NCBI RefSeq assembly: GCF_000008665.1
Contig: NC_000917.1
Span: 480,001-512,000, forward strand
DNA length: 32,000 nucleotides
Source of the DNA: Archaeoglobus fulgidus DSM 4304
GTDB lineage: Archaea; Halobacteriota; Archaeoglobi; Archaeoglobales; Archaeoglobaceae
Direction of reading: 5' to 3'
Positions 2,296 through 29,570 of the stretch are shown piece after piece. Below the pieces are notes generated by a model. It had not been told where the DNA came from. It saw nothing but the letters and a program-made list of their open reading frames with translations, and ran no database searches. The number at the start of each line of letters is the position of its first letter. Position 1 is the first letter of the stretch. Position numbers and translations under genes: made by a program.

Positions 2296-4180
2296 GTGAG
2301 TCCTGATCAGACGGCTGTTGAGTACACGGCAAAGGATATCGAAGTTCTTGACGACCTCGAAGCTGTAAGGAAGAGGCCTGGAATGTATATCGGTGGAGTA
2401 GGAGTGCGTGGACTTCATCACCTTCTTTGGGAGGTGGTTGATAATGCGGTTGATGAGGCCCTTGCGGGTTACTGCGATACAATAAAAGTGAGTCTTCACA
2501 AAGATGGCTCGGCATCGGTAGAGGATAACGGGCGAGGCATACCTACGGAAATGCACGAGTTAGGCAAATCAGCGCTTGAAATAGTGATGACGAAGCTTCA
2601 CGCTGGGGGAAAGTTCTCGAAGAAGGTTTACCGCGTTTCCGGGGGCTTGCACGGAGTTGGTGTATCGGTTGTTAACGCACTCTCGGAGTGGCTGGAGGTG
2701 TGGGTCAAAAGAAACGGTAAAATCTACTACCAGAAGTATCAGCGCGGAAGCCGGTCACCGAACTGAAGTTCTTGGAGAGACGAAAGAGCACGGCACTACG
2801 GTGAGGTTCAAGCCGGACAGGGAGATTTTCGAAACGACGGAATTCAAGTATGAGATAGTGGCCCAGCGCCTGAAGGAGCTCGCGTATCTCAACCGCGGAT
2901 TGAAGATTATACTATTCGATGAAAGGGAGGGTAAGGAAGAGACGTTCCACTTTGAAGACGGGATAATCGGTCTTGTGAGGAGCCTAAACAGGAATCGAAA
3001 GCCTCTCCATGAGCCCATTTACATTGAGACCACTAAGGACGGAGTGAGTGTTGAGGTCGCAATTCAGTTCACGGATTCGGATGTCGAGAACATTCAGGCT
3101 TTCGCCAACAACATCAACACGTCAGAAGGTGGCTCCCACGTCGTAGGCTTTAGAGCGGGGCTTACAAGAGCGGTAAACGAGTACGGCAAAAAGCACCTCA
3201 AAAAGTTTGAGCCTGTCACCGGAGTTGACATAAGGGAGGGGCTTACGGCTGTTATAAGCGTCAAAGTTCCTGAACCGCAGTTTGAAGGGCAGACAAAGAC
3301 CAAGCTCACGAACAGCGACGTCAAGACTGTCGTCGAGTCTGCGGTTTACTCGGGAGTTTTAAGGTGGCTTGAAGAGAATCCGGCTCAGGCTGAGACGCTT
3401 CTCAATAAGTTTATTTTGAATAAAAAGGCAAGGGAGGCTGCGAAGAGGGCCAAGGAACTTGTAAAGAGGAAGAACGAGCTGATTACAACCCTGCCCGGAA
3501 AACTCGCCGACTGCTCATCGAAGAATCCTGAGGAGAGGGAGCTTTTCATAGTTGAGGGCGAGTCTGCCGGGGGTTCAGCTAAGCAGGCAAGGGACAGAAG
3601 ATTTCAGGCAATCCTTCCGATAAAGGGGAAGATTATAAACGTCGAAAAGGCGGGAATGGCCAGAGTGCTTAAAAATGACGAGATTAAGGCCATAATCTCA
3701 GCCATAGGTGCTGGGATCGGAAAGGATTTCGACATAACAAAGGCAAGATACCGCAGAATCATAATAATGACTGACGCTGACGTCGATGGGGCACACATAA
3801 GGACGCTGCTGCTGACCTTCTTTTACAGGTACATGAGGCCACTGATAGAGAGCGGCTACCTCTACATAGCCCAGCCCCCGCTGTATCAGATAAAGAAGGG
3901 GAAGAAGAGCTACTATGCCTACTCCGACGAAGAGCTGAAGAGGACGCTGGAGCAGGTTGGTGGTGGAGAGGTGCAGAGGTACAAGGGTTTGGGAGAGATG
4001 AACCCGCAGCAACTCTGGGAAACTACGATGAACCCGGAAAACAGAATTTTGATCCAGGTAACTCTTGAGGATGCCAAAAGGGCAGACGAGCTTTTCAGCA
4101 TTCTCATGGGCGAGGATGTGGAGAGCAGGAGGAACTTCATAATGGCCCACTCGAAAGAGGTGAAGAACCTTGACATTTGA
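2296..4180 (+). pseudogene. gyrB: DNA gyrase subunit B; the reading frame is interrupted as sequenced (two apparent 1-nt deletions at about 2748 and 2768)
   Basis: ORFs 2296..2766 and 2657..4180 together make a complete GyrB. They carry the GHKL motifs 'EVVDNAVDE', 'DNGRGIP' and 'GGLHGVG', the TOPRIM motifs 'VEGESAGGSAK' and 'IMTDADVDGAHI', and the tail 'YKGLGEMNP'. The third frame across 2748-2768 encodes KPVTELK, which bridges '...YQKYQRG' to 'VLGETKEHGTTVRFKPD'. Confidence 0.9.
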
Positions 4181-4931
4181 GAAATACAGCAGGCAGATTA
4201 TGATTTTTGGGGAGGAGGGACAGAGAAGGTTGAGCAAAGCCAAGGTTCTTGTGGTCGGCGCGGGGGGTCTTGGTAGCCCGGTAATAGCCTACCTCGCAGC
4301 AGCGGGCGTGGGAAAAATTGGGATAGTTGATGGCGACACAGTCGAGGTTTCCAATTTGCAAAGGCAAATTATACACGCTGGGAATCTCGGGGAAAATAAG
4401 GCGGAGTCGGCCGCAGAATTTGTGAAGAAGCTCAACCCCGACGTTGAGGTGGATGTTTACCCCTTCTCAATAACTCCCGAAAACGTTCTTGAGGTCGTTG
4501 AGCGATACGACGTTGTTGCGGGCTGCCCCGACAGCTTCAGGAGCAGGTTTTTGCTGAACGATGCTTGCATGATTTTAAAAAAGACGTTCGTCCATGCGGC
4601 CGTGTATGCATGGGAAGGGGAGGTGGCAACCTTCACGGGAAAGCCGTGCTACAGATGCTACATTCCGAAATCACCTGAAGAGAGTGGAAGGGCCATATTA
4701 GGAGCTACTGCCGGGGCATTTGGCTGTTTGCAGGCGGCAGAGGTAATTAAAATCATCACCGGAAGTGGTGAACCGCTCATCGGAAGGCTGATAAGGGGAA
4801 ACCTTGCCGAGATGGAGTTCTTCACAATCAACATTCCTGAGAGGGATGACTGTCCTGTTTGCTCAGGAAGGCTGAAAGGTATTTTCGACGAAAACTACGT
4901 TGATGATTGCACAATCAGACGCCTTGAGTGA
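4170..4931 (+). CDS. ThiF/MoeB/HesA-family E1-like adenylyltransferase, paralogue 1
   Basis: The 253-aa ORF carries 'YSRQI', the nucleotide loop 'VVGAGGLGSP', and two CxxC pairs (CYRC, CPVC). The TTG start at 4170 keeps the conserved YSRQ motif and overlaps the gyrB stop by 11 nt. There is no rhodanese domain. The crossover-loop Cys present in paralogue 2 is absent here. Confidence 0.85.
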   Translation: MTFEKYSRQIMIFGEEGQRRLSKAKVLVVGAGGLGSPVIAYLAAAGVGKIGIVDGDTVEVSNLQRQIIHAGNLGENKAESAAEFVKKLNPDVEVDVYPFSITPENVLEVVERYDVVAGCPDSFRSRFLLNDACMILKKTFVHAAVYAWEGEVATFTGKPCYRCYIPKSPEESGRAILGATAGAFGCLQAAEVIKIITGSGEPLIGRLIRGNLAEMEFFTINIPERDDCPVCSGRLKGIFDENYVDDCTIRRLE

Positions 4932-21478: not shown

Positions 21479-21802
21479 ATGGCCAAGGAGAAGAAGAGAA
21501 AGGAAAGGGAAGAGAAGCCTGAAGCACCAAAGGAGGAAGAGTACAATCTGGCCAAGGAGATGAAGAAAACTCTTACCCCGATACTTATGGGAGTTGTTGC
21601 TGGCATTCTTTCCTTCCTCGCAACGGGCGAGTTCAGGCAGAGGGATGCCTTCGGCATCATAATCCTCGTTTTCCTCATCTACGTGCAGAAGTTCATCCTG
21701 CCAAAAATGGGGATTGAGCTTGAGGGAAAGGACTGGGCTGGGATTGCTTTCCTGACCTTCTCAAGCTGGTACATAAGCTGGACGATTATGCTGAACCTGT
21801 GA
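21479..21802 (+). CDS. hypothetical small membrane protein (Lys/Glu-rich N-terminus, 3 predicted TM helices)
   Basis: The ATG at 21479 ('MAKEKKRKEREEKPE...') lies just after the thrS stop. Hydrophobic segments are 'ILMGVVAGILSFLA', 'FGIIILVFLIYV' and 'AGIAFLTFSSWYISWTIML'. The 3' end overlaps convergent mtaD by 17 nt. Confidence 0.55.
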   Translation: MAKEKKRKEREEKPEAPKEEEYNLAKEMKKTLTPILMGVVAGILSFLATGEFRQRDAFGIIILVFLIYVQKFILPKMGIELEGKDWAGIAFLTFSSWYISWTIMLNL

Positions 21803-23054
21803 GCCTTTTTGCAACTTCATTGGCCTTTTCTATTATTTTGAGCTCCTCCTCCTCGCTCCTGAACACCCCGCCCTCAACCACCACCTCTCCTTTCACTATT
21901 ACAGTGTCAACGCAGCCTGAGGAGGCAGCATATACAAGATTGGCGATGAGGCTGTGCTCTGGCTGCATGTAGGGCTTTGCTAAGTCCACCAGAACAATAT
22001 CGGCCTCGTAGCCCTCCTTTATTACTCCAGACTTTATGCCAAAAGCCTTTGCCCCGTTAAGCGTTGCAGCCTCGAAAACCTCCTCCGCTTTTAGCAGAGT
22101 TGGGTTGCTGTGGTGGAATTTCTGCAGCAAAGCGGCGAACTTCATCTCCTCCAGCATGTCGAGGTTGTTGTTGCTTGCCGCACCATCTGTGGCAAGGGTG
22201 AAGTTAACTCCAGCCCTCTTCATTGCCTCATACCTTATCGCTTTACCGACGCAAAGCTTCATGTTGCTCGCAGGGCAGTGGGCAACGCTCACCCCCTTCT
22301 TCGCCAGAATTTCAATTTCGGCATCCTCCAGCCAGACGCTGTGGGCAGCGATAAGCCTCTTGCTCAAGAATCCAATTTCATCCAGAGCCTGAACGATCAG
22401 CTTCCCGTGCTGCTTTTTAAAGTCTAAAACCTCCTTTTCCGTCTCTGCCAGATGGAAGTGCATGAAGATGTCCATCTCCTCCGCTATCTCAGCAGCCCTC
22501 CTCAACCCGTCAAGGCTCACAGTGTAGACAGCATGAGGGCCTATCGCTCTAAGCACATCGTACTTCTCAATCTCCCTCAGGCTTTTCACCGCATTCTTCA
22601 GGTTCAACTCCAGCAAATCGGGATTGAAGAAGTCGAAGAAAGCTGCAGAAACGCATGCCCTTATTCCGCACTCCTCAGCCGCCCTTGCAATAGCTTCGGG
22701 GAAAAAGTACATGTCGTTGAAAAACACCGTCCCGCTCTTCAGCATCTCAACGCATGCAAGCTTCGTTCCCCAGTAAACTGCTTTATCATCCAGTTTTGCC
22801 TCCAAAGGCCATATTTTCTTCTCCAGCCACTCGTGAAGCTGCATGTCGTCAGCGTAGCTCCTGAAGAGAGTCATTGCAGCGTGGGTGTGGGTGTTGAAGA
22901 AGCCGGGAATAACAGCTTTCCTGCTGCCGTCAATGACGACATCGCTCTTCACAGCCTTACCGCCTATTTCGGAAATCTTTTTCCCTTCAACCTTCAGATT
23001 TCCCTCCACAATTCCCTTGGGAGTCAAAATCTTGGCATTCTTGATGAGAATCAT
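21786..23054 (-). CDS. mtaD: amidohydrolase of the 5'-methylthioadenosine/S-adenosylhomocysteine deaminase family
   Basis: The sequence 'GFFNTHTHAAMTLFRSYADDMQLHEWLEKKIWPLEAKL' matches the MtaD/TM0936-type motif. The metal ligands HxH, 'HFHLAET' and 'TDGAASNN' are present. Confidence 0.8.
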   Translation of the reverse strand: MILIKNAKILTPKGIVEGNLKVEGKKISEIGGKAVKSDVVIDGSRKAVIPGFFNTHTHAAMTLFRSYADDMQLHEWLEKKIWPLEAKLDDKAVYWGTKLACVEMLKSGTVFFNDMYFFPEAIARAAEECGIRACVSAAFFDFFNPDLLELNLKNAVKSLREIEKYDVLRAIGPHAVYTVSLDGLRRAAEIAEEMDIFMHFHLAETEKEVLDFKKQHGKLIVQALDEIGFLSKRLIAAHSVWLEDAEIEILAKKGVSVAHCPASNMKLCVGKAIRYEAMKRAGVNFTLATDGAASNNNLDMLEEMKFAALLQKFHHSNPTLLKAEEVFEAATLNGAKAFGIKSGVIKEGYEADIVLVDLAKPYMQPEHSLIANLVYAASSGCVDTVIVKGEVVVEGGVFRSEEEELKIIEKANEVAKRLTGSA

Positions 23055-23126
23055 TGGCCATTATCCTGACTGCTGGGATAAAATTCTTTTGTCCTCTTTA
23101 TTACTGCCATGAATTTAACACTGACC

Positions 23127-23140
23127 AAAAATTATTAATA
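23127..23140 (+). promoter_or_regulatory. TATA-like box (AAAAATTATTAATA) for the ThrC-like operon
   Basis: Its centre is about 27 nt before the ATG at 23163, consistent with a leaderless first gene. Confidence 0.4.
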
Positions 23141-23162
23141 CTCATAGCATCTTAACAACGTT

Positions 23163-24377
23163 ATGTATCTGGTAGCGTTGAAGTGCAGGATATGTGGAAC
23201 GGAATACCCGCCCGAACCCCTTTACCACTGCAGCCTCTGCTTCGGGCCGCTGGAAGCCGTTTACGATTACGAGGGGATAAAGGAGAGCGTGAGTAAAGAG
23301 GAGATTTCGAAGAGAGTGCAGAGCGTATGGAGATACAGGGAGTTTTTACCCACCAACCATGATCCCGTTGACCTCGGAGCAGGATTTACGAGATTCATAC
23401 ACGCAAAGAACCTTGGAGAGTGTCTGGGACTAAAGAACCTCTACCTGCTGGACGATTCGACCAATCCAACCTACTCCTTCAAGGACAGAGTCGTGAGCGT
23501 TGCAGTAACCAAGGCGCTGGAGTTCGGGATGGATGTTGTTGGATGCGCCTCTACCGGAAACCTCGCCGGAAGCTTGGCAGCGCACGCCGCTAAGGCTGGA
23601 CTGAAAGCTTTCATATTCGTTCCTGCTGGTATAGAGAAGAACAAAATCGTTCAGGCTCTCGTGCATGGAGCTACGGTTGTTGAGGTAAATGGAACCTATG
23701 ACGACGCCAACAGGCTCGCTGCGGAAATAGCGGAGAAGAACAGGAACTGGGGATTCGTGAACATCAACCTCCGCCCCTACTATGTGGAGGGAAGCAAAAC
23801 CCTTGCCTTTGAAGCTGCGGAGAGGCTTGGATGGGAGGCCCCATCTCAGGTGGTGGTGCCCGTCGCATCTGGAGCGCTGCTTTACTCGATTTACAGAGGT
23901 TTCAAAGAGCTTGAGACAGTTGGACTTATCGATTCGGCTGAAGTTGCTTTCAACGCCGCCCAGCCTGAGGGATTTCCGGTAGCGAGGGCTGTGAAGGAGA
24001 GAAGACAGGTTGAGCCAATAGAGAGGTTCAGCACGATAGTCCACAGCCTCGCCATAGGGAATCCAGCGGACGGAATCTTTGCAAAGGAGGTTGTGGAGAG
24101 AAGCGGCGGTTACGCTGAAGACCCGAGCGACGCTGAGGTTATCGAGGCTGTCAAGCTCCTCGCGAGGACTGAGGGGATTTTCACCGAGCTTGCTGGAGGT
24201 GTGACAGTTGCTGCTCTAATAAGGCTGGTTGAGGACGGCAGAATTGACAGAGACGAGAAGGTTGTGGCGTATCTCACAGGAAACGGGCTTAAAACAGCTG
24301 AAGCTGTGGCAGAGACTCTGAGCACCGTAAAGATAGATGCCAGAGTAGAAGAGTTTGAGAAGGTCTTGGGGAGGTGA
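23163..24377 (+). CDS. threonine synthase-like PLP enzyme (ThrC paralogue or family member) with an N-terminal Cys4 ribbon
   Basis: The PLP-lysine motif 'NPTYSFKDR', 'CASTGNLAGSLAAHAAKAG' and a C-terminal 'TGNGLK' are present. The N-terminus is 'CRICGTEY...CSLCFGPLE'. The gene is translationally coupled to the downstream MoaD/ThiS-like gene. Confidence 0.85.
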   Translation: MYLVALKCRICGTEYPPEPLYHCSLCFGPLEAVYDYEGIKESVSKEEISKRVQSVWRYREFLPTNHDPVDLGAGFTRFIHAKNLGECLGLKNLYLLDDSTNPTYSFKDRVVSVAVTKALEFGMDVVGCASTGNLAGSLAAHAAKAGLKAFIFVPAGIEKNKIVQALVHGATVVEVNGTYDDANRLAAEIAEKNRNWGFVNINLRPYYVEGSKTLAFEAAERLGWEAPSQVVVPVASGALLYSIYRGFKELETVGLIDSAEVAFNAAQPEGFPVARAVKERRQVEPIERFSTIVHSLAIGNPADGIFAKEVVERSGGYAEDPSDAEVIEAVKLLARTEGIFTELAGGVTVAALIRLVEDGRIDRDEKVVAYLTGNGLKTAEAVAETLSTVKIDARVEEFEKVLGR

Positions 24378-24381
24378 AGGG

Positions 24382-24648
24382 ATGGCGATAAAGGTCAGGC
24401 TTCCAGCATCGATAAATCAGGGAGATCTGGAAATTGATGCGGAGAAGCTTACGGTAAACCAGCTAATAGCTCTGCTTTCTCAGATTACCGGCAAAGACCT
24501 CGAAAAAATTCTGAAGAGGGACGGTGAGCTTTCACCCTTCATCAGCATCTTTGTCAATGGCAGGAATGTGAGGTATGCTGAGGGGCTCGAAACTGAGGTA
24601 AGAAGCGGGGACGAGGTTTCAATCGTTCCGACGGTGGCTGGTGGTTAA
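24382..24648 (+). CDS. MoaD/ThiS-family beta-grasp sulfur-carrier (ubiquitin-like) protein ending in Gly-Gly
   Basis: The 88-aa protein ends '...GDEVSIVPTVAGG' followed directly by the stop. The RBS GGGGAGGTGA spans the thrC-like stop. The size and the 'FVNGRNV' / 'GDEVSIVP' pattern are typical of MoaD and ThiS. Confidence 0.8.
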   Translation: MAIKVRLPASINQGDLEIDAEKLTVNQLIALLSQITGKDLEKILKRDGELSPFISIFVNGRNVRYAEGLETEVRSGDEVSIVPTVAGG

Positions 24649-25452
24649 ATGCTGAACAAGGAGCAGGTAAAGCGCTACGGAAGACAGATTCTGATTCCAG
24701 AAATTGGTGGAAGAGGTCAGGAAAAGCTTCTGAAGGCGAAAGTGCTTGTTGTGGGAGCAGGTGGGCTCGGAAGCCCCGCAATAGAGTTTCTCGCAGCTGC
24801 CGGAGTTGGCAGGATTGGCATCGCTGATGGAGATGAGGTGGACATAACGAATCTCCACCGCCAGACCATTCACGCAGGAAATCTTGGCGTAAACAAGGCT
24901 GAATCGGCAGCGAGCTTCGTTGAGAAACTCAATCCTGATGTGGAGGTTGATGTGTATCCCTTCCACCTTTCTGCAGAGAATGCGAGAGAGGTGATATCGA
25001 AATACGACGTCGTGCTGGACTGCACCGACAGCTTCAGTTCGAGGTTCCTGATAAACGACGCATGCGTTCTGGAAAGTAAGCCTTTCGTGCACGCTGCCGT
25101 GCTGAGATTTGAAGGGCAGATTATGACAGTTATCCCCCACGAAACTGCCTGCTACCGCTGCTTTCTGCCCGAAGCTCCTCCGCCCGGCAGCGTTCCGAGC
25201 TGCAGGGAGGCGGGGATAATAGGGACGACCACAGCATTTTTTGGAGTTCTTCAGGCCAACGAGGCGATTAAGCTCATTCTTGGCACAGGTGAGCTTTTCA
25301 CCAACAGGCTTCTCTACGCCGACATCCTCCACAACGATTTTAACTTCATTGAGGTAAAGAAGCAGGAGAAGTGCAGGGTGTGTGGTGAGAGTGGGATTGA
25401 GGAGCTGAGGAGTGATTACTATGTCGAGACGTGCAGAATCGAGGCAGATTGA
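24649..25452 (+). CDS. ThiF/MoeB/UbaA-family E1-like adenylyltransferase, paralogue 2
   Basis: The motifs are 'YGRQILIPEIG', 'VVGAGGLGSP', CYRC and CRVC zinc motifs, and the crossover-loop Cys in 'PSCREAGIIG'. Its ATG follows the carrier-protein TAA with zero spacer. There is no rhodanese domain. Confidence 0.85.
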   Translation: MLNKEQVKRYGRQILIPEIGGRGQEKLLKAKVLVVGAGGLGSPAIEFLAAAGVGRIGIADGDEVDITNLHRQTIHAGNLGVNKAESAASFVEKLNPDVEVDVYPFHLSAENAREVISKYDVVLDCTDSFSSRFLINDACVLESKPFVHAAVLRFEGQIMTVIPHETACYRCFLPEAPPPGSVPSCREAGIIGTTTAFFGVLQANEAIKLILGTGELFTNRLLYADILHNDFNFIEVKKQEKCRVCGESGIEELRSDYYVETCRIEAD

Positions 25453-25678
25453 GGCTAATGAAGTCCTTGATATTCGCGGAGAAGTTTGCCCTTTCACCTT
25501 CATCGAGACAAAGCTCAAGCTTGAGGAGATGAAAAGCGGGGAGATTCTTAGGGTTATCATTGACCATGAGCCTGCAGTGAGAGACGTGCCGAGGAGCGTG
25601 GAGCAGGAGGGGCATGAGGTTCTTTCAGTGGAAAAGGTAGGAGAGAAAGAATGGAGTATTCTTATAAAAAAGAAGTAA
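25421..25678 (+). CDS. TusA/SirA-family sulfurtransferase
   Basis: The active-site motif is 'LDIRGEVCPFTFIETKLKLEEM'. The 'GEILRVIIDHEPAVRDVPRSV' pattern is also present. The ATG at 25421 follows GAGGAGTGA. The gene overlaps the E1 3' end by 32 nt. Confidence 0.8.
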   Translation: MSRRAESRQIEANEVLDIRGEVCPFTFIETKLKLEEMKSGEILRVIIDHEPAVRDVPRSVEQEGHEVLSVEKVGEKEWSILIKKK

Positions 25679-25710
25679 AAGCTTTTTGAATATTTTTATA
25701 AAAGCTTTTT
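25677..25710 (+). terminator. hairpin-capable pair of AAAAGCTTTTT elements ending in T5; possible terminator that also overlaps a TATA-like TTTTTATAAAA
   Basis: The 11-mer occurs at 25677-25687 and 25700-25710. Each contains the self-complementary AAAAGCTTTT, so the two copies can pair into a 10-bp stem with a 13-nt loop. The structure lies directly after the tusA stop. Confidence 0.3.
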
Positions 25711-25808
25711 AACACCGTTAAATTTTCAGGGAGCAGTTTTTCACGAAATTATCAAAACCTCGCAAAGCTATTTAAGAAATAAGAGTGATAGTTCAGTGAG
25801 GTGATGTT

Positions 25809-26192
25809 ATGAAACTGGCAATTGTTCTGGCAAGTGGTGAGTTGGAGAAGGTTCAGGCTGCGAGCATTATTGCAAGCACCGCCGCAACGCTCGGCGAGGT
25901 AATGGTTTTCGCCACAATGGACGGGTTGATGGCCTTCAAGAAAGACGTGGTGGAGAACAAGGCATGGAAGGCTGGAGAGCTTGGTAAGGGCATGATTCAG
26001 GCAAATGCACCGCTCTTCATAGACGTTCTCAAGCAGGCAAAGGAGGTAGGAAATCTGAAGGTCTATGCCTGCGGTATGGTCATGGACATGCTGAAGATGA
26101 GCCTTGACGACTTCGTTGACATCTTTGATGACGTCATTGGCGTCACGAAGTTCCTCGGCATGGTTGAGGACGCAAAGGTTCTCTTCATCTAA
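25809..26192 (+). CDS. DsrE/DsrF-like (COG2210-type) sulfur-relay protein
   Basis: The 127-aa protein starts 'MKLAIVLASGELEKV...' and has a conserved Cys in 'VYACGMVMDM'. A GAGGTGA RBS precedes it. It is immediately followed by a second TusA gene. Confidence 0.7.
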   Translation: MKLAIVLASGELEKVQAASIIASTAATLGEVMVFATMDGLMAFKKDVVENKAWKAGELGKGMIQANAPLFIDVLKQAKEVGNLKVYACGMVMDMLKMSLDDFVDIFDDVIGVTKFLGMVEDAKVLFI

Positions 26193-26212
26193 ATTTTTTG
26201 GGGGTGGTTGAG

Positions 26213-26434
26213 ATGGTAGTTGTTGACGCAAGGGGAAGCTACTGCCCGGGCCCACTGATGGAGATGATTAAAACTCTCAAGCAGGTTGAGGTTGGAGAGG
26301 TTGTTGAGGTTCTCTCCAGCGATGAAAGCAGTGCCAAAGACATTCCTGAGTGGGTCAAGAAAGCTGGACATGAGCTTGTTGAGGTAAAGAAGGAAGAAGA
26401 CTACTGGAGAATTGTTGTTAAGAAGTTGAAGTGA
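26213..26434 (+). CDS. TusA/SirA-family sulfurtransferase, second copy
   Basis: The active-site motif is 'VDARGSYCPGPLMEMIKTLKQV'. The ATG at 26213 has a GGGGTGG RBS and is preferred over the TTG at 26198. Confidence 0.8.
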   Translation: MVVVDARGSYCPGPLMEMIKTLKQVEVGEVVEVLSSDESSAKDIPEWVKKAGHELVEVKKEEDYWRIVVKKLK

Positions 26435-26435
26435 T

Positions 26436-27578
26436 ATGAAAAACATTGTTATTGTTGGTGGAGGAGTTGCTGGAACCATTACTGCAAACTACCTCGCAAT
26501 GAAGCTCAGGGAGGAAATCAGGGAGAAGAACGTCTCCATAACCCTGATTTCAGACAGGGAGAAGCAGCTCTACGAGCCGGGACTGCTTTACCTCATTTTC
26601 AACAGAATGGAGGAGAGCGAGATTCTCAAAGATGTTAAGTACCTTCTTGACCCGCTAATTGAGCTGAAGATTGCAAGGGCAACGAAAATTGATGCGGAGA
26701 AGAGCAGGGTTGAGCTTGAAAATGGAGAAGTGGTAAACTACGACTACCTTGTCATCGCTACAGGTTCAAGAGTTGCTCCTGAGGAGATGCCGGGGCTTGT
26801 TGATGGCGGACACTGGTTCTACAACCTTGATGGGGCAAAAAGGCTGAGAGAGGAGCTTGCAAGGTTCAAGAAGGGAAAGGTTGTCGTCAGCGTAATGGGA
26901 ATCCCGCACAAATGCCCCGTTGCACCCATTGAGGTTACCTTCATGCTCCACGAGTTCTTCAAGATTCACGGCGTGAGGAAGGATGTGGAGTTGCTCTACA
27001 CCTACCCGATAAACAGAGTCTTCACGATGGAGGAGGTTTCCGACCTTGTCCAAAAAATGTTCGACGAGAGGGGGATAAACTACAAGACCTTCTTCAATCC
27101 CGTAAGCATCGACCCTGAGAAGAAGGTCATTGAGACTCTGGAGGGTGAGGAGGAGCCATACGACCTCCTTATAGCAATCCCGCCGCACAAGGGCTCTCAG
27201 GTAATCATCGACTCAGGCCTTGGCGATAGAGATGGCTGGGTCCCGACTGACAGGTACACGCTGAAGGCCGAGGGACTGGAGAATGTGTATGTTGTTGGAG
27301 ATGCGACGAATTTGCCAGTAAGCAAAGCAGGCAGTGTGGCACACTTTGAGGCGGAGGTTGTGGCGGAGAATATAGCTGCGGAGATTAAGGGCCTGCCCCC
27401 AACAGCCAGATACTTCGGAAAGGCGATGTGCTTCATCGAGACGGGATTCAGCGAGGCGACATACATATGGTTCGACTACGAGACACCACCGAAATTCGTA
27501 AAGCCTAACAAGTTCATCCACTGGATGAAGCTTGCCTACAACAGAATGTACTGGCTTACGGCAAGAGGTATGCTCTGA
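26436..27578 (+). CDS. sulfide:quinone oxidoreductase-like FAD-dependent pyridine-nucleotide-disulfide oxidoreductase
   Basis: An N-terminal Rossmann motif 'IVIVGGGVAGTITA' and 'YVVGDATNLPVSKAGSVAHFEAEV' are present. Two Cys lie at SQR-like positions ('GIPHKCPVAPIE' and 'GKAMCFIETG'). The start is 1 nt after the tusA stop. Confidence 0.7.
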   Translation: MKNIVIVGGGVAGTITANYLAMKLREEIREKNVSITLISDREKQLYEPGLLYLIFNRMEESEILKDVKYLLDPLIELKIARATKIDAEKSRVELENGEVVNYDYLVIATGSRVAPEEMPGLVDGGHWFYNLDGAKRLREELARFKKGKVVVSVMGIPHKCPVAPIEVTFMLHEFFKIHGVRKDVELLYTYPINRVFTMEEVSDLVQKMFDERGINYKTFFNPVSIDPEKKVIETLEGEEEPYDLLIAIPPHKGSQVIIDSGLGDRDGWVPTDRYTLKAEGLENVYVVGDATNLPVSKAGSVAHFEAEVVAENIAAEIKGLPPTARYFGKAMCFIETGFSEATYIWFDYETPPKFVKPNKFIHWMKLAYNRMYWLTARGML

Positions 27579-27587
27579 GGTGGTAGT

Positions 27588-28001
27588 ATGTCGGAAGAGG
27601 AGACTGTCAAGCAGCTTGAGCCCCTTCTGAAGAAAATAGCGGAGAATCAGGAGCACCTCATAGAGGCGATTGACAAGCTGGTCTGGCTTGAGAAGAGTGG
27701 GAATCTCGATGCTCTGCTTGGATTTTCAGCCCTCATCAAAATCGTTCAGGACTCAATCAGCGATGCGGTGGTGGAGAGGAACATGGAGATGATATCGAAC
27801 ATAGGCTTGATTTCGACCAAGTTCACCAGCGACAGAGCTTTGGTTCTGCTCAACGCTCTTGGAGATGCGATCTGCAGGTGCGAGAGGGAGCCTGAGCCCG
27901 TTGGCATGGTAGGGCTGATGAAAGCACTCAGAGAGCCTGAGGTGCAGAAGGCTCTGGGAATGCTGCTGAACATCGCGAGGGAGCTTGGGAAGAACATATA
28001 A
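27588..28001 (+). CDS. DUF1641-like small helical protein (a common partner of SQR-like flavoproteins)
   Basis: The 137-aa protein has a helical repeat pattern and a C-terminal 'GLMKALREPEVQKALGMLLNIAREL'. The family name comes from my memory of this motif and its neighbourhood. Confidence 0.6.
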   Translation: MSEEETVKQLEPLLKKIAENQEHLIEAIDKLVWLEKSGNLDALLGFSALIKIVQDSISDAVVERNMEMISNIGLISTKFTSDRALVLLNALGDAICRCEREPEPVGMVGLMKALREPEVQKALGMLLNIARELGKNI

Positions 28002-28060: not shown

Positions 28061-28858
28061 ATGAATCCAGAAACACTGGAAAAACTGCAGAGGATGAGAG
28101 GATTTCTTGAAGGTTTCAAAGGGGTTGTTATCGCCTTCAGCGGTGGTGTTGACAGCTCAACTCTTGCTGCGGTCTGCAAGGATGCAGGACTTGATGTTCT
28201 GGCAGTAACGGTTGTCTCTCAAAAATCTCCGTCAAGGGAAATTAAAGATGCTGCAAAAATCGCAATGGAAATTGGCGTGAAACACGAGTTTGTCAATATG
28301 GACATTCTGACACCGGAATTCAGGGAAAACACATCTGAGAGGTGCTACTTCTGCAAGAAAAAGGTTCTTTCATCTCTGGTGTCCTTGGCCGAGGAGAGGG
28401 GTTACGATGCAGTTTTTGAAGGGACAAATGCGAGCGATTTAGAAGGGCACAGACCGGGATACAAAGCTGTAAAGGAAATGCACGGGGTTTACAGTCCTTG
28501 GGCTGAATTTGGGATTACGAAGAAGGAAATAAGGATGGTAGCGAAGTCCATGGGGTTTTCGTTTTACGACAAGCCGTCTCTTGCCTGCTTGGCTTCGAGA
28601 ATCCCTTCTGGCGTTGAAATTGACGAGCGAAAGCTGAGAATGGTCGATGAGGCAGAGAATCTGGTGATAGAAATTGCTGGGGTGAGGCAGGTAAGGGTGA
28701 GGAATTATGACGGTGTTGCAGTCGTGGAGGTCGGTGAAGAGGAGATAGGCAAGCTACTCGAAAAAGCGACGATAGTGAGGGACAGGCTGAAGGAAATAGG
28801 ATTTAGATCGGTTCTGGTTGATCTGGAGGGCTACAGAACGGGGAAGCAGCTGTTTTAG
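28061..28858 (+). CDS. LarE-family PP-loop ATP pyrophosphatase / sulfur transferase (TIGR00268-like)
   Basis: The PP-loop is 'AFSGGVDSS'. Three conserved Cys are present ('CYFCKK' and 'PSLACLASR'). The C-terminal domain contains 'VRVRNYDGVAVVEV'. Confidence 0.8.
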   Translation: MNPETLEKLQRMRGFLEGFKGVVIAFSGGVDSSTLAAVCKDAGLDVLAVTVVSQKSPSREIKDAAKIAMEIGVKHEFVNMDILTPEFRENTSERCYFCKKKVLSSLVSLAEERGYDAVFEGTNASDLEGHRPGYKAVKEMHGVYSPWAEFGITKKEIRMVAKSMGFSFYDKPSLACLASRIPSGVEIDERKLRMVDEAENLVIEIAGVRQVRVRNYDGVAVVEVGEEEIGKLLEKATIVRDRLKEIGFRSVLVDLEGYRTGKQLF

Positions 28859-29570
28859 ACATCAATTGCGTCCCCTCTAACAACTACATTTGTTGCAAAG
28901 GACACTGCAGCCAAACCACTTTTTTTCGCACACCTTTATCGCAGAATCCAGTATCGCCGCCTTGGACACCACAAGAGGTATTCCGGCTCTCACACATTTC
29001 ATCGCTATACCCCTCGAAATTCTGCCTGACAGTAGCAAGAAAGTCCGGCTCAGGTCAACCCCCATCAATAGAGCCGCCCCTATGGCTTTATCAACAGCGT
29101 TGTGCCTTCCAACGTCGTATCTCCGGACAATTAATCCATCTTTCCCCACTATTGCAGCAATATGATATCCATGTGTTCTCTCATACTCTTCGACGTTAAG
29201 ATAATCCAGAGCCCTTTCTGTCTCGGCATATTGAGAACCTCTCTCCCACTTCAACCTTCCCTACAACTTCATCCTCTCTGTAGATTCCTATGCATCCGGA
29301 AGACCTGATGGTGGATTCGCCCGGATTTCCATTCACATTGACGAAGACCGCATTGCTGTTCTGCAAACAGGGTGCCTCACGGAATTCGATGTCTTCAACA
29401 GATTTGGCAATCCCTTCAGAGATCAGAAATCCAACTGCAAGCTCTTGCAGATTTTTTGGAGTGCACATTATTCTGTATGGTGTTCTACCCACAAAAATCG
29501 TGAACTGATCCTCTTCTGCGAGTTCAAGAGGTTCGCCGATTTTTTCAATCACGTATAGAAGTTTAGCCAT
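28855..29570 (-). pseudogene. fdhD: FdhD-family sulfurtransferase (formate dehydrogenase accessory protein) with two frameshifts
   Basis: The N-terminal ORF 29196..29570 carries 'TPKNLQELAVGFLISEGI'. The C-terminal ORF 28877..29254 carries 'YDVGRHNAVDKAIG'. The first frame break is near 29225-29240. The second is in the T7 run at 28920-28926. Removing one T restores '...AIKVCEKSGLAAVSFATNVVVRGDAIDV' with a stop at 28855-28857. Confidence 0.75.

What the first reader, a model, noticed from the sequence alone, without database searches (positions are those of the whole stretch)
23163..25678. Translationally coupled ThrC-like PLP enzyme, GG-terminated beta-grasp carrier, E1-like adenylyltransferase and TusA: a predicted protein-thiocarboxylate-dependent C-S bond-forming pathway
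Seen in the sequence:
- The ThrC-like stop (24375-24377) lies inside the RBS GGGGAGGTGA of an 88-aa ORF that ends ...VAGG directly before its stop.
- The E1-like ATG (24649) follows that stop with no spacer.
- A TusA ORF (Cys-Pro motif 'RGEVCPF') overlaps the E1 3' end by 32 nt.
- The ThrC-like protein keeps the PLP lysine motif SFKDR.
- The E1 keeps GxGxxG, two CxxC pairs and the loop Cys ('SCREAGIIG'), and has no rhodanese domain.

Established knowledge: ThiS/MoaD-type carriers are adenylated by ThiF/MoeB-type E1s and converted to C-terminal thiocarboxylates. These donate sulfur to PLP enzymes. Examples are CysO/MoeZ/CysM for cysteine in Mycobacterium and HcyS/HcyF/MetY for homocysteine in Wolinella. 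I also recall a ThrC-like MetM with a ThiS-like MetO acting on O-phosphohomoserine in Streptomyces.

Inference:
- This archaeal operon makes a thiol amino acid, with homocysteine the most economical guess, from a phosphorylated hydroxy-amino acid plus carrier-COSH.
- TusA replaces the missing rhodanese domain as persulfide donor.
- No JAMM protease is needed, because the GG end is genetically encoded.
- The divergent neighbour mtaD (SAH/MTA deaminase family) adds a methionine/homocysteine context.
Basis: partly seen in the sequence, partly recalled or inferred. Interest (0 to 1): 0.8.

Follow-up and report, generated by a model that had tools for sequence, protein, structure and literature searches.

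The report
Archaeal protein-thiocarboxylate homocysteine synthesis operon
Four tightly packed Archaeoglobus genes most likely make homocysteine, the methionine precursor, by passing sulfur from a small carrier protein to a threonine-synthase look-alike; this pathway type was first shown in Streptomyces in 2024, and here it comes with its own activating enzyme and sulfur-relay protein.

Summary
The four genes match A. fulgidus AF0551-AF0554 gene for gene.

The ThrC-like/carrier pair, usually with the E1 and TusA, recurs in Archaeoglobales, Methermicoccus, Methanohalophilus, Methanoperedens, Halorutilales, Nitrospirae, a deltaproteobacterium, SAR202 and actinomycetes. In Nonomuraea the orthologous pair (48% identity) follows a SAM riboswitch, as published for Streptomyces metM-metO.

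In my tree this clade excludes solved threonine synthases in 100/100 bootstraps. It replaces four of five ThrC residues I recall as phosphate-binding. A. fulgidus has a second, expressed thrC (AF1316) and separate moaD, moaE and moeB. AF0551-0554 are near-silent on published arrays.

In Geoglobus and Methermicoccus the module ends an assimilatory sulfate-reduction operon.

Best reading: an archaeal, self-contained MetM/MetO-type homocysteine synthase system, in which an E1 without rhodanese plus TusA replace MoeZ and no Mec/JAMM is needed.

Limits:
- No biochemistry was done.
- S. albulus MetM itself was not compared.
- O-phosphoserine/cysteine chemistry and residual threonine synthase activity are not excluded.
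- The mtaD neighbour is weak context.

This is a new variant of a known kind, of moderate interest.

The parts
23055..23162 (.). Divergent intergenic region between the amidohydrolase gene and the ThrC-like gene. An AT-rich TATA-like box (TTATTAAT, 23132-23139) lies about 27 nt before the ATG. There is no Shine-Dalgarno sequence, so the first gene is probably leaderless (inference).
   Evidence: Sequence read. No riboswitch or other Rfam family is found here, even at E<=1.
23163..24377 (+). ThrC-like PLP enzyme of 404 aa (AF0551 ortholog). It has an N-terminal CxxC...CxxC zinc ribbon and the PLP lysine K107. It is the predicted carrier-thiocarboxylate-dependent homocysteine synthase (MetM-like).
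   Evidence: PALP; TIGR00260 358 bits; about 200 bits to solved ThrCs, which align only from residue 55; clade and signature motifs; T88L, S155I, R160Y and N188S relative to T. thermophilus ThrC; 48% identical ortholog behind a SAM riboswitch.
24382..24648 (+). Sulfur-carrier protein of 88 aa (AF0552 ortholog; ThiS/MoaD beta-grasp, MetO/CysO-like). It ends in Gly-Gly directly before the stop codon. Its RBS overlaps the upstream stop codon.
   Evidence: the best solved relatives are CysO of Amycolatopsis (4n6e_B, 1e-9) and of M. tuberculosis (3dwg_C, 1e-7); orthologs follow the ThrC-like gene in 15 loci, and every archaeal one ends GG-stop.
24649..25452 (+). E1-like adenylyltransferase of 267 aa (AF0553 ortholog). 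It has GxGxxG, two CxxC pairs and a Cys-bearing crossover-loop insertion (PPGSVPSC), and no rhodanese domain. It is predicted to adenylate the carrier C-terminus.
   Evidence: 70 (best solved relatives are Uba4, ThiF and MoeB); 16, 21 and 74 (conserved position after the carrier gene); the paralog elsewhere in the window lacks the Cys loop.
25421..25678 (+). TusA-family sulfurtransferase of 85 aa (AF0554 ortholog), overlapping the E1 gene by 32 nt. It belongs to an E1-linked TusA subfamily (LRGEVCPFTF...DHEPA..DVPRSV). It is the predicted persulfide donor to the E1/carrier.
   Evidence: the subfamily motif is conserved in Archaeoglobales, Methermicoccus, Nitrospirae and a deltaproteobacterium, and differs from the Sir-linked and DsrE-linked TusAs.
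25679..25712 (+). Three T5 runs within about 35 nt after the TusA stop, in a repeated AAAAGCTTTTT. This is a probable archaeal oligo-T terminator that ends the four-gene unit.
   Evidence: Sequence. It fits the arrays, where AF0551-0554 are silent while AF0555-0557 are expressed.
25809..26192 (+). DsrE-like protein of 127 aa with a single Cys (AF0555 ortholog). It is a probable sulfur-relay partner and a separate transcription unit here.
   Evidence: A DsrE-like gene lies immediately upstream of the ThrC-like gene in Ferroglobus, Geoglobus, Archaeoglobus JdFR-37, Mnemosynella and Methermicoccus.
26213..26434 (+). Second TusA (AF0556 ortholog; CPGP motif), paired with the DsrE-like gene.
4170..4931 (+). 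Stand-alone E1 paralog of 253 aa (AF0531 'moeB' ortholog), 53% identical to the operon E1. It is context only, and shows that the operon E1 is an extra, dedicated copy.
   Evidence: It is expressed at about the array mean in A. fulgidus.
21786..23054 (-). Divergent MtaD/TRZ-ATZ-family amidohydrolase of 422 aa (AF0550 ortholog). It is a neighbour only and probably not part of the system.
   Evidence: the best solved hit is the MTA/SAH deaminase 4f0r (4e-75). Adjacency is seen only in the A. fulgidus group (L006).

Best explanation
The four translationally coupled genes form a self-contained pathway that makes homocysteine from a protein thiocarboxylate. It is of the MetM/MetO type.

Proposed steps:
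1. The E1 adenylates the Gly-Gly C-terminus of the 88-aa carrier. This is inferred from the domains.
2. TusA delivers a persulfide sulfur, probably to the Cys on the E1 crossover loop or directly to the acyl-adenylate. DsrE-like and TusA partners may feed TusA. In relatives an assimilatory sulfite reductase may do so. This step converts the carrier to its C-terminal thiocarboxylate (inferred).
3. The ThrC-like PLP enzyme binds O-phosphohomoserine and eliminates phosphate. It lets the carrier thiocarboxylate attack C-gamma instead of adding water at C-beta (inferred from orthology).
4. An S-to-N acyl shift and hydrolysis release homocysteine and regenerate the carrier. This is assumed by analogy with CysM/CysO and MetY/HcyS.

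Shown here: the gene anatomy, domain content, conserved synteny, clade separation from true threonine synthases, SAM-riboswitch control of the actinobacterial ortholog, and the presence of separate thrC, moaD, moaE and moeB genes in A. fulgidus.

Not shown: any enzymatic step.
For: Anatomy and coupling.

Synteny. ThrC-like followed by carrier, E1 and TusA occurs in:
- Ferroglobus, Geoglobus, Archaeoglobus JdFR-37, Mnemosynella, Nitrospirae and a deltaproteobacterium;
- Methermicoccus and, with the ThiF gene divergent upstream, Methanohalophilus;
- G. acetivorans.
The ThrC-like/carrier pair alone occurs in Methanoperedens, SAR202, Halorutilales and Nonomuraea.

Link to methionine. The Nonomuraea ortholog (48% identity) lies 14 nt behind a SAM riboswitch (RF00162, 68.7 bits against a gathering score of 44.4). 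A 91-aa carrier ending AGG-stop follows it. S. albulus metM is reported to have an upstream SAM riboswitch and to convert O-phosphohomoserine to homocysteine with MetO thiocarboxylate.

Phylogeny. The window protein, all carrier-linked homologs and the riboswitch-linked homolog form one clade. It excludes solved ThrCs in 100/100 NJ bootstraps and all other family members in 89/100.

Signature motifs. The clade shares SFKDRV, STGNLA, VNxNLRPYY.EGSKT, P.ASG and IGNPADG. True ThrCs have GSFKDRGM, STGNTSAS, NSVNP.R.EGQKT, PVGNAGN and IGNPASW. Mapped to T. thermophilus ThrC, the changes are T88L, S155I, R160Y and N188S.

Not the housekeeping ThrC. A. fulgidus has thrC-2 (AF1316) expressed at about 1x the array mean, while AF0551-0554 sit at about 0.1x in five conditions. 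Close relatives of the Methanohalophilus copy are Methanoperedens and ANME-type MAGs, not cultured Methanosarcina, so the distribution is patchy and paralog-like.

Not the Moco system. Separate moaD (AF1624), moaE (AF2179) and moeB (AF0531, also in this window) exist.

Sulfur-assimilation context. Geoglobus carries Sir-TusA-AprA-like-ferredoxin-Sat-DsrE-ThrC-like-carrier-E1-TusA on one strand. Methermicoccus has the same run with an extra TusA between Sat and DsrE, and SepCysS and TauE lie next door in both. ATP sulfurylase, PAPS reductase and sulfite reductase lie beside the Methanohalophilus copy.

Carrier. It is closest to CysO-type carriers that serve PLP enzymes.
Against: - No biochemical or genetic test exists for any archaeal member.
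- S. albulus MetM itself could not be retrieved, so the link runs through a riboswitch-marked Nonomuraea ortholog and second-hand descriptions of Hasebe et al. 2024. That paper is not held, and one search returned only Streptosporangiales.
- NCBI's thrC equivalog model scores the protein well above its cut-off (358 against 167 bits).
- The Microcystis homolog is 51.6% identical to MetM and sits next to a metO-like gene. It was reported to have threonine synthase activity in vitro and did not behave as a full MetM in vivo. Members of the clade may therefore be bifunctional.
- The operon is near-silent in all published A. fulgidus conditions, so its physiological role there is unproven. Those media contained yeast extract and sulfide.
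- The roles I assign to the ThrC phosphate-site residues come from memory of the T. thermophilus structures, not from a tool.
- The tree is neighbour-joining on representatives that carry no annotation.
Confidence: 0.68

Rival explanations
1. The system is an O-phosphoserine-dependent cysteine synthase. The ThrC-like enzyme would carry out a beta-replacement on O-phosphoserine with the carrier thiocarboxylate. This is what M. tuberculosis CysM/CysO does, and cysteate synthase (a ThrC homolog) does it with sulfite. It would give free cysteine to archaea that otherwise make Cys only on tRNA.
For: - The carrier's best solved relatives are CysO proteins.
- No cysteine synthase, sulfhydrylase or cystathionine enzyme appears by name in the A. 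fulgidus gene table.
- SepCysS lies next to the cluster in Methermicoccus and Geoglobus.
- ThrC-family enzymes can use O-phosphoserine (cysteate synthase; Graham et al. 2009, from memory).
Against: - The orthologous pair in Nonomuraea is controlled by a SAM riboswitch, which marks methionine genes, not cysteine genes.
- The characterised clade member MetM uses O-phosphohomoserine.
- The cysteate synthase model scores only 67 bits against a cut-off of 325.
Confidence: 0.1
2. The protein is an ordinary threonine synthase that merely sits next to a general-purpose SAMP/UbaA-type system. That system would serve tRNA thiolation, tungsten/molybdenum cofactor synthesis or protein conjugation.
For: - TIGR00260 thrC scores 358 bits, above its cut-off.
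- The carrier scores 54.4 against the SAMP1 model (cut-off 60) and passes moaD_arch. The E1's best NCBIfam match is UbaA, though below cut-off.
- The Microcystis relative shows threonine synthase activity.
Against: - Adjacency and translational coupling are conserved across two domains of life.
- A second thrC is expressed while this one is silent.
- Separate moaD, moaE and moeB genes exist.
- The clade is separate from solved ThrCs and four phosphate-site residues are replaced.
- No MoaE, NcsA/TtuA or JAMM gene lies within about 8 kb.
Confidence: 0.07
3. The module makes a different thiol or C-S metabolite, such as a non-proteinogenic thio-amino acid or a cofactor precursor. Or it is bifunctional, making threonine without the carrier and homocysteine with it.
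For: - The ThrC family is functionally plastic. Many uncharacterised clades and fusions appear among 1,609 cluster representatives at E<1e-30.
- The operon is silent under standard growth.
- The Microcystis enzyme has several activities.
Against: - SAM-riboswitch control of the ortholog.
- Embedding in sulfate-assimilation operons beside SepCysS fits primary amino-acid sulfur metabolism.
- No tailoring or export genes are conserved alongside.
Confidence: 0.12

Closest known systems
MetM/MetO pathway of Streptomyces albulus (Hasebe et al. 2024, Appl Environ Microbiol 90:e01247-24; known to me through)
   Same: - A ThrC-homologous PLP enzyme is encoded immediately upstream of a ThiS/MoaD-like carrier.
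- The proposed chemistry is O-phosphohomoserine plus carrier-COSH giving homocysteine.
- The window protein groups with a SAM-riboswitch-controlled actinobacterial ortholog and shares its signature motifs.
   Different: - In Streptomyces the carrier is activated by the shared MoeZ (E1 plus rhodanese) and, according to the GapMind preprint, matured by Mec. Here a dedicated rhodanese-less E1 and a TusA are translationally coupled to the pair, and the carrier ends in GG, so no peptidase is needed.
- There is no riboswitch here.
- The host is archaeal.
- In relatives the module is fused to sulfate-assimilation genes.
HcyS/HcyF/MetY system of Wolinella succinogenes and the 'type 4e' sulfur-assimilation operons of Iyer et al. 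2006
   Same: - The product is homocysteine made from a protein thiocarboxylate.
- The E1 lacks rhodanese and is accompanied by SirA/TusA.
- The genes are linked to ATP sulfurylase, APS/PAPS reductase and sulfite reductase (compared).
   Different: - The C-S bond-forming enzyme there is MetY, an O-acetylhomoserine sulfhydrylase of fold-type I. Here it is a ThrC-like fold-type II enzyme that presumably uses O-phosphohomoserine.
- HcyS needs a JAMM protease (from memory). The archaeal carriers here do not.
CysO/MoeZ/CysM/Mec cysteine pathway of Mycobacterium tuberculosis
   Same: - A carrier thiocarboxylate donates sulfur to a fold-type II PLP enzyme acting on a phosphorylated hydroxy-amino acid.
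- The window carrier's closest solved relatives are CysO proteins.
   Different: - The PLP enzyme there is a CysM/CysK-family cysteine synthase acting on O-phosphoserine, not a ThrC-family enzyme.
- The E1 carries a rhodanese domain.
- The product is cysteine.
Canonical threonine synthase (ThrC; solved structures 2zsj, 6cgq, 1uim, 2d1f)
   Same: - Same fold and same PLP lysine.
- About 200-bit similarity.
- Probably the same substrate, O-phosphohomoserine.
   Different: - It forms a separate clade (100/100 bootstraps).
- It has an N-terminal zinc ribbon that the solved enzymes lack.
- It carries T88L, S155I, R160Y and N188S at the site that, from memory, holds the phosphate in T. thermophilus ThrC.
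- It is always linked to a carrier gene.
Haloferax SAMP1/UbaA ubiquitin-like system
   Same: A beta-grasp protein ending in GG plus a rhodanese-less E1 with a loop Cys. The scores against the SAMP1 and UbaA models fall just or well below their cut-offs.
   Different: - It is operonic with a PLP enzyme and TusA.
- A second E1 in the genome could serve the general SAMP roles.
- Conjugation was not tested and cannot be tested here.

Membership tests
MetM/MetO thiocarboxylate-dependent homocysteine synthase system | The ThrC-homologous PLP enzyme belongs to the MetM clade rather than to functional threonine synthases. | tested here: met
   The NJ tree places the window protein with a SAM-riboswitch-controlled Nonomuraea ortholog and all carrier-linked homologs. 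Solved ThrCs are excluded in 100/100 bootstraps, and the signature motifs are shared. Caveat: S. albulus MetM itself was not in the tree, so the proxy is the riboswitch-marked ortholog.
MetM/MetO thiocarboxylate-dependent homocysteine synthase system | A ThiS/MoaD-like carrier gene (metO) lies immediately downstream of the ThrC-like gene. | tested here: met
   The carrier ATG is 4 nt after the ThrC-like stop. The same adjacency occurs in 15 loci.
MetM/MetO thiocarboxylate-dependent homocysteine synthase system | The enzyme converts O-phospho-L-homoserine plus carrier thiocarboxylate to L-homocysteine. | not testable with these tools
   This needs enzyme assays. It is inferred only from orthology and context.
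MetM/MetO thiocarboxylate-dependent homocysteine synthase system | Methionine/SAM-responsive regulation (a SAM riboswitch upstream of metM in Streptomyces). | tested here: not met
   No Rfam family is found in the window or upstream of the gene, even at E<=1, nor in the other archaeal or bacterial loci. A riboswitch is present in the Nonomuraea ortholog. This feature is probably lineage-specific rather than defining.
MetM/MetO thiocarboxylate-dependent homocysteine synthase system | The carrier is activated by MoeZ (E1 plus rhodanese) and matured by Mec. | tested here: not met
   The E1 has only a ThiF domain. No rhodanese or JAB domain is among the called genes within about 8 kb. The carrier ends GG-stop. 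This is a difference in accessory parts, not in the core.
Canonical threonine synthase (TIGR00260 equivalog) | Scores above the curated model cut-off. | tested here: met
   357.9 bits against a cut-off of 167.1. The more specific models PRK08197 (276.6 against 303) and PRK05638 (239.9 against 421) are not met.
Canonical threonine synthase (TIGR00260 equivalog) | Conserved phosphate-site residues of T. thermophilus ThrC (T88, N154, S155, R160, N188; their roles are recalled from Omi 2003 and Murakawa 2011). | tested here: not met
   The window protein has L134, N200, I201, Y207 and S236, so only N154 is kept. The Nonomuraea ortholog shows the same pattern.
Canonical threonine synthase (TIGR00260 equivalog) | It is the genome's threonine synthase. 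| tested here: not met
   A. fulgidus VC-16 has thrC-2 (AF1316) expressed at 0.6-1.1x the array mean, while thrC-1 (AF0551) sits at 0-0.1x.
Cysteate synthase (TIGR03844) | Scores above the curated model cut-off. | tested here: not met
   67.2 bits against a cut-off of 324.9.
ThiS/MoaD sulfur-carrier proteins | A beta-grasp domain with a C-terminal Gly-Gly available for adenylation. | tested here: met
   PF02597 at 2.7e-13 and TIGR01687 at 54.1 bits, above its 49.5 cut-off. The protein ends VAGG-stop. Solved relatives are CysO and SAMP1. The fold itself was not modelled.
MoeB/ThiF/UbaA E1-like adenylyltransferases | A ThiF adenylation domain with a nucleotide-binding GxGxxG and a Zn-binding pair of CxxC motifs. 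| tested here: met
   PF00899 at 5e-85. The motifs were read. Solved relatives are Uba4, ThiF and MoeB. All equivalog models fall below their cut-offs, for example UbaA at 310 against 450.
TusA sulfurtransferases | A TusA domain with the conserved N-terminal Cys-Pro motif. | tested here: met
   PF01206 at 3.3e-25. The motif here is VCPFT, so the second Pro of the usual CPxP is Thr. This holds across the conserved E1-linked subfamily.

The most novel reading that the evidence does not exclude
In Archaeoglobales, Methermicoccus and some Methanosarcinales the module may be the last stage of a fully protein-bound sulfur assimilation line. The line would run sulfate, Sat, AprAB-like reductase, sulfite reductase, TusA/DsrE-like relay, E1/carrier thiocarboxylate, ThrC-like enzyme. 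The neighbouring SepCysS would draw on the same relay. In that case both cysteine and homocysteine sulfur would be delivered as persulfide or thiocarboxylate, without free sulfide and without a cysteine desulfurase. This would give a concrete answer to how methanogen-related archaea and ANME assimilate oxidised sulfur and load SepCysS.
Probability: 0.2. Interest if true: 0.7.

Novelty: new variant of a known kind. Interest (0 to 1): 0.45.

Why it matters
**Annotation.** These genes are annotated everywhere as 'threonine synthase', 'MoaD' and 'ThiF'. Re-reading them as a methionine-branch pathway changes metabolic reconstructions for Archaeoglobi, ANME/Methanoperedens, some halophilic archaea, Nitrospirae and SAR202.

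**Experimental value.** The archaeal version carries its own activation and sulfur-relay genes in one operon. That makes it a compact, thermostable system for reconstituting the whole route from TusA persulfide to homocysteine. It can also test whether TusA plus an E1 loop cysteine can substitute for a rhodanese domain.

**Ecology.** Its fusion to assimilatory sulfate-reduction genes in Geoglobus and Methermicoccus bears on the open question of how methane-cycling archaea assimilate sulfate.

**Limit.** The core chemistry is not new, because it was published for Streptomyces in 2024.

Tried and rejected
1. Reading Hasebe et al. 2024 directly: the paper is not held. I relied on two citing papers.
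2. Retrieving S. albulus MetM. The homolog search from the window protein listed only archaeal relatives. The search from the Nonomuraea ortholog was saturated by Streptosporangiales. No direct comparison with MetM was therefore possible.
3. Testing whether the experimentally proven Methanosarcina ThrC (MA1610, from memory) is the carrier-linked type. The search from the Methanohalophilus protein returned no cultured Methanosarcina. This argues against it only indirectly, and Graham et al. 2009 is not held.
4. Looking for a SAM riboswitch or any RNA element in the window and in ten other loci: none found.
5. Naming cluster representatives through cluster look-up gave almost no organism names.
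6. Searching for a prior description of the archaeal cluster. Makarova & Koonin 2010 and Iyer et al. 2006 mention links to cysteine synthase and sulfhydrylase but not to ThrC. Yu et al. 2018 on ANME sulfate assimilation does not discuss it. Hocking et al. 2014 does not discuss AF0551-0557 in the main text.
7. Confirming a DUF39 homocysteine route in A. fulgidus. The only lead is AF0847, annotated 'guaB-1' but placed in COG class R. It is unverified.
8. Rosetta-stone fusions. One ThiF-PALP fusion representative (P0283) is truncated and may be a gene-calling artefact. The published cysH-thrC fusions in Thermoplasmata could not be placed in my tree.
9. I considered and dropped structure prediction. 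The tool returns no coordinates or complexes, so it could not test docking of the carrier tail.
10. I treated the mtaD neighbour as functional context and rejected it, because the adjacency is not conserved outside the A. fulgidus group.

Full report
**1. Observation**

Reading the window directly confirms every sequence feature in the finding.
- The 404-aa ThrC-like ORF runs 23163-24377. Its TGA (24375-24377) is the last triplet of GGGGAGGTGA (24368-24377).
- An ATG four bases later (24382) opens an 88-aa ORF that ends ...PTVAGG-TAA (stop at 24646-24648).
- The next base, 24649, is the A of the ATG of a 267-aa E1-like ORF, which stops at 25450-25452.
- An 85-aa TusA ORF starts at 25421, 32 nt inside the E1 gene, behind GAGGAGTGA. 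It stops at 25676-25678.

Pfam and NCBIfam assign the four products as follows.
- The first is PALP at 5e-67, and it scores 358 bits against the thrC model TIGR00260.
- The second is ThiS at 2.7e-13, and it passes moaD_arch (54.1 bits against a 49.5 cut-off).
- The third is ThiF at 5e-85, with no rhodanese domain.
- The fourth is TusA at 3e-25.

Gene callers on metagenome contigs that carry the identical protein call the same four genes.

**2. Where the window comes from**

The order and strands of the window's genes match A. fulgidus VC-16 AF0530-AF0559 gene for gene. The run is gyrB, moeB..., ftsZ..., thrS AF0548, AF0549, trzA-1 AF0550 (minus strand), thrC-1 AF0551, 'MoaD' AF0552, thiF AF0553, AF0554, AF0555-0559. 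This follows. The finding is therefore the AF0551-AF0554 cluster of an A. fulgidus-like archaeon.

**3. Is the linkage real?**

The ThrC-like, carrier, E1, TusA order recurs in many genomes.
- Ferroglobus, Geoglobus, Archaeoglobus sp. JdFR-37 and Ca. Mnemosynella carry it at 69-74% identity.
- Two Nitrospirae and a deltaproteobacterium carry it at 52-54% identity.
- It is also present in Methermicoccus shengliensis and G. acetivorans.

Methanohalophilus mahii has the ThrC-like/carrier pair with ThiF divergent and a TusA nearby. Methanoperedens, a SAR202 bacterium, a Halorutilales archaeon and Nonomuraea keep the ThrC-like/carrier pair alone. All archaeal carriers end GG-stop. Some bacterial ones have short tails after GG. 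The TusA that follows the E1 belongs to its own conserved subfamily, LRGEVCP[FYL]TF...DHEPA..DVPRSV, found in both domains.

**4. What the ThrC-like protein is**

Its best solved relatives are genuine threonine synthases from Aquifex, B. subtilis, T. thermophilus and M. tuberculosis. They score about 185-200 bits and align only from residue 55, so none has the N-terminal zinc ribbon.

An exhaustive search finds 1,609 cluster representatives at E<1e-30. I aligned 109 of these family members and built a tree. The window protein, every carrier-linked homolog and the Nonomuraea homolog form one clade. That clade excludes the solved ThrCs in 100/100 NJ bootstraps and all other members in 89/100.

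The clade has its own motifs: SFKDRV, STGNLA, VNxN[LI]RPYY.EGSKT, P.ASG and LAIGNPADG. True ThrCs have GSFKDRGM, STGNTSAS, NSVNP.R.EGQKT, PVGNAGN and IGNPASW.

Mapped onto T. thermophilus ThrC, K61 is kept (K107) but T88, S155, R160 and N188 become L, I, Y and S. From memory of the T. thermophilus structures, these residues hold the phosphate that ThrC retains as a catalytic base for adding water at C-beta. Losing them fits a gamma-replacement enzyme. This step is inference.

**5. The link to methionine**

A tblastn search of the plasmid collection hit a record that is really the 11.85-Mb chromosome of Nonomuraea gerenzanensis. There the ortholog is 48% identical and keeps the zinc ribbon. It starts 14 nt after a SAM riboswitch (RF00162, 68.7 bits against a gathering score of 44.4). 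A 91-aa ThiS-like ORF ending IPAVAGG-stop follows it.

This matches what is reported for S. albulus metM-metO. There is an upstream SAM riboswitch. MetM is a ThrC homolog that converts O-phosphohomoserine to homocysteine using the sulfur carrier MetO. MoeZ and Mec are the helpers. The ortholog is conserved at 83% identity or more across Streptosporangiales and is always named 'threonine synthase'.

I could not obtain S. albulus MetM itself.

**6. Not the housekeeping ThrC, not the Moco system**

The full gene table of Hocking et al. 2014 lists a second threonine synthase, thrC-2 (AF1316), at 0.6-1.1x the mean array signal. AF0551-AF0554 all sit at 0-0.2x in five conditions. Their neighbours AF0550 and AF0555-0557 range from 0.5x to 2.3x.

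The same table lists separate moaD (AF1624), moaE (AF2179) and moeB (AF0531). The moeB paralog lies in this window at 4170-4931 and is 53% identical to the operon E1. It lacks the eight-residue loop insertion that carries the Cys.

Relatives of the Methanohalophilus copy are Methanoperedens and ANME-type MAGs rather than cultured Methanosarcina. So the gene is a patchily distributed paralog.

The array media contained yeast extract and sulfide. Silence there is compatible with a repressible biosynthetic operon, but it proves nothing about function.

**7. Sulfur source**

In G. acetivorans the module is the 3' end of a same-strand run. The order is sulfite reductase-like, TusA, AprA-like flavoprotein, ferredoxin, ATP sulfurylase, DsrE-like, ThrC-like, carrier, E1, TusA. 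Methermicoccus has the same run with one more TusA between the ATP sulfurylase and the DsrE-like gene. TauE and a bona fide SepCysS (501 bits against a cut-off of 365) lie next door. M. mahii has ATP sulfurylase, PAPS reductase and sulfite reductase beside the pair.

In the sulfate-respiring A. fulgidus type these assimilatory genes are absent. A DsrE-like/TusA pair follows instead, with an SQR-type flavoprotein and a DUF1641 protein. Three T5 runs after the TusA stop and the array data suggest this is a separate transcription unit.

Iyer et al. 2006 had already noted that rhodanese-less E1s in sulfur-assimilation operons always come with SirA/TusA.

**8. Mechanism proposed**

1. The E1 adenylates the carrier's Gly-Gly end.
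2. TusA persulfide converts the adenylate to a thiocarboxylate, possibly through the E1 loop Cys. The persulfide would be fed by the DsrE-like/TusA relay or by sulfite reductase.
3. The ThrC-like enzyme eliminates phosphate from O-phosphohomoserine.
4. The thiocarboxylate attacks C-gamma.
5. Acyl shift and hydrolysis release homocysteine.

Only the parts list, the conservation and the regulatory link are shown. All chemistry is inferred.

**9. Rivals**

- O-phosphoserine/cysteine chemistry is the most serious rival. The carrier resembles CysO, SepCysS is a neighbour, and no cysteine synthase is listed in A. fulgidus. The SAM riboswitch and the MetM data argue against it.
- A chance neighbour of a general SAMP system is unlikely, given sections 3 and 6.
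- Bifunctionality stays open. The Microcystis relative of MetM shows threonine synthase and deaminase activities in vitro.

**10. Novelty**

The pathway type is published (2024). The open literature I could search does not describe archaeal members. One 2025 paper states that the distinct ThrC lineage was seen only in cyanobacteria.

Three things are new here:
- the self-contained four-gene architecture, with a dedicated rhodanese-less E1 plus TusA, a carrier that ends in GG, and no peptidase;
- its breadth across archaea and anaerobic bacteria;
- its fusion to sulfate-assimilation operons.

I rate it a new variant of a known kind, of moderate interest.

Noticed in passing
window 25809-28001 (+): A cluster of DsrE-like protein, TusA, type III SQR-like flavoprotein (369 bits against a cut-off of 525) and DUF1641 protein (AF0555-AF0558). 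In A. fulgidus arrays the first three are expressed, and their signal is higher in thiosulfate cultures than in sulfate cultures (0.7-1.4x rising to 1.4-2.3x). AF0551-0554 stay silent. This could be a module that turns sulfide or thiosulfate into persulfide and feeds TusA.
   Followed up: partly
window 28061-28858 (+): A LarE-type PP-loop ATPase (TIGR00268, 268.7 bits against a cut-off of 150; AF0559). A 60% identical homolog lies just downstream of the E1-linked TusA, on the opposite strand, in Archaeoglobus JdFR-37 and Mnemosynella (L004, L005). It may be another conserved sulfur-insertion neighbour.
   Followed up: no
window 28877-29570 (-): FdhD, a sulfurtransferase for the molybdopterin cofactor, is split into two overlapping ORFs of 124 and 125 aa in different frames. 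The same split appears on independent metagenome contigs (L017, L018), so it is a real frameshift or pseudogene rather than an error in one assembly.
   Followed up: partly
window 29716-31561 (+): An FeoB-like iron transporter is broken into at least four consecutive or overlapping ORFs (GTPase part, then Gate-domain pieces). It looks like a decayed gene.
   Followed up: no
window 4170-4931 (+) compared with 24649-25452 (+): The two E1 paralogs in the window are 53% identical. Only the operon copy has the 8-residue crossover-loop insertion with the Cys (PPGSVPSC). The stand-alone 'moeB' copy has no loop Cys at all.
   Followed up: partly
L014 9468-10655 (-); L022 1-1047 (-): A bona fide SepCysS (TIGR02539, 501 bits) and a TauE-family permease sit next to the sulfate-assimilation/ThrC-like cluster in Methermicoccus. 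Geoglobus acetivorans has the same pair, although there the SepCysS-like gene runs off the locus and was identified from Pfam domains only. This hints at a shared sulfur relay for Cys-tRNA and homocysteine synthesis.
   Followed up: partly
L006 580-1709: In a 96%-identical Archaeoglobus MAG, the ThrC-like gene lacks residues 151-176 and changes frame at the junction. The contig has only about 4.5x coverage, so this may be an assembly error or a pseudogene.
   Followed up: no
proteins P0219, P0242, P0261, P0176, P0233, P0283: Other ThrC-family representatives carry fused domains. Three have a C-terminal LeuA allosteric (dimerisation) domain and two have a C-terminal PadR domain. One has an N-terminal ThiF domain (P0283), but it is truncated and may be a gene-calling artefact. 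A 2024 paper also reports cysH-thrC fusions in Thermoplasmata.
   Followed up: partly
L020 (NZ_LT559118.1): The PLSDB 'plasmid I' of Nonomuraea gerenzanensis is an 11.85-Mb record with only 10 annotated features. It is evidently the chromosome, filed as a plasmid.
   Followed up: no
L021 2468-2968 (-): In the Halorutilales genome a JAB/MPN peptidase gene lies about 3 kb from the ThrC-like/carrier pair, even though that carrier gene directly overlaps the ThrC-like stop codon. I did not check whether the two are functionally linked.
   Followed up: no
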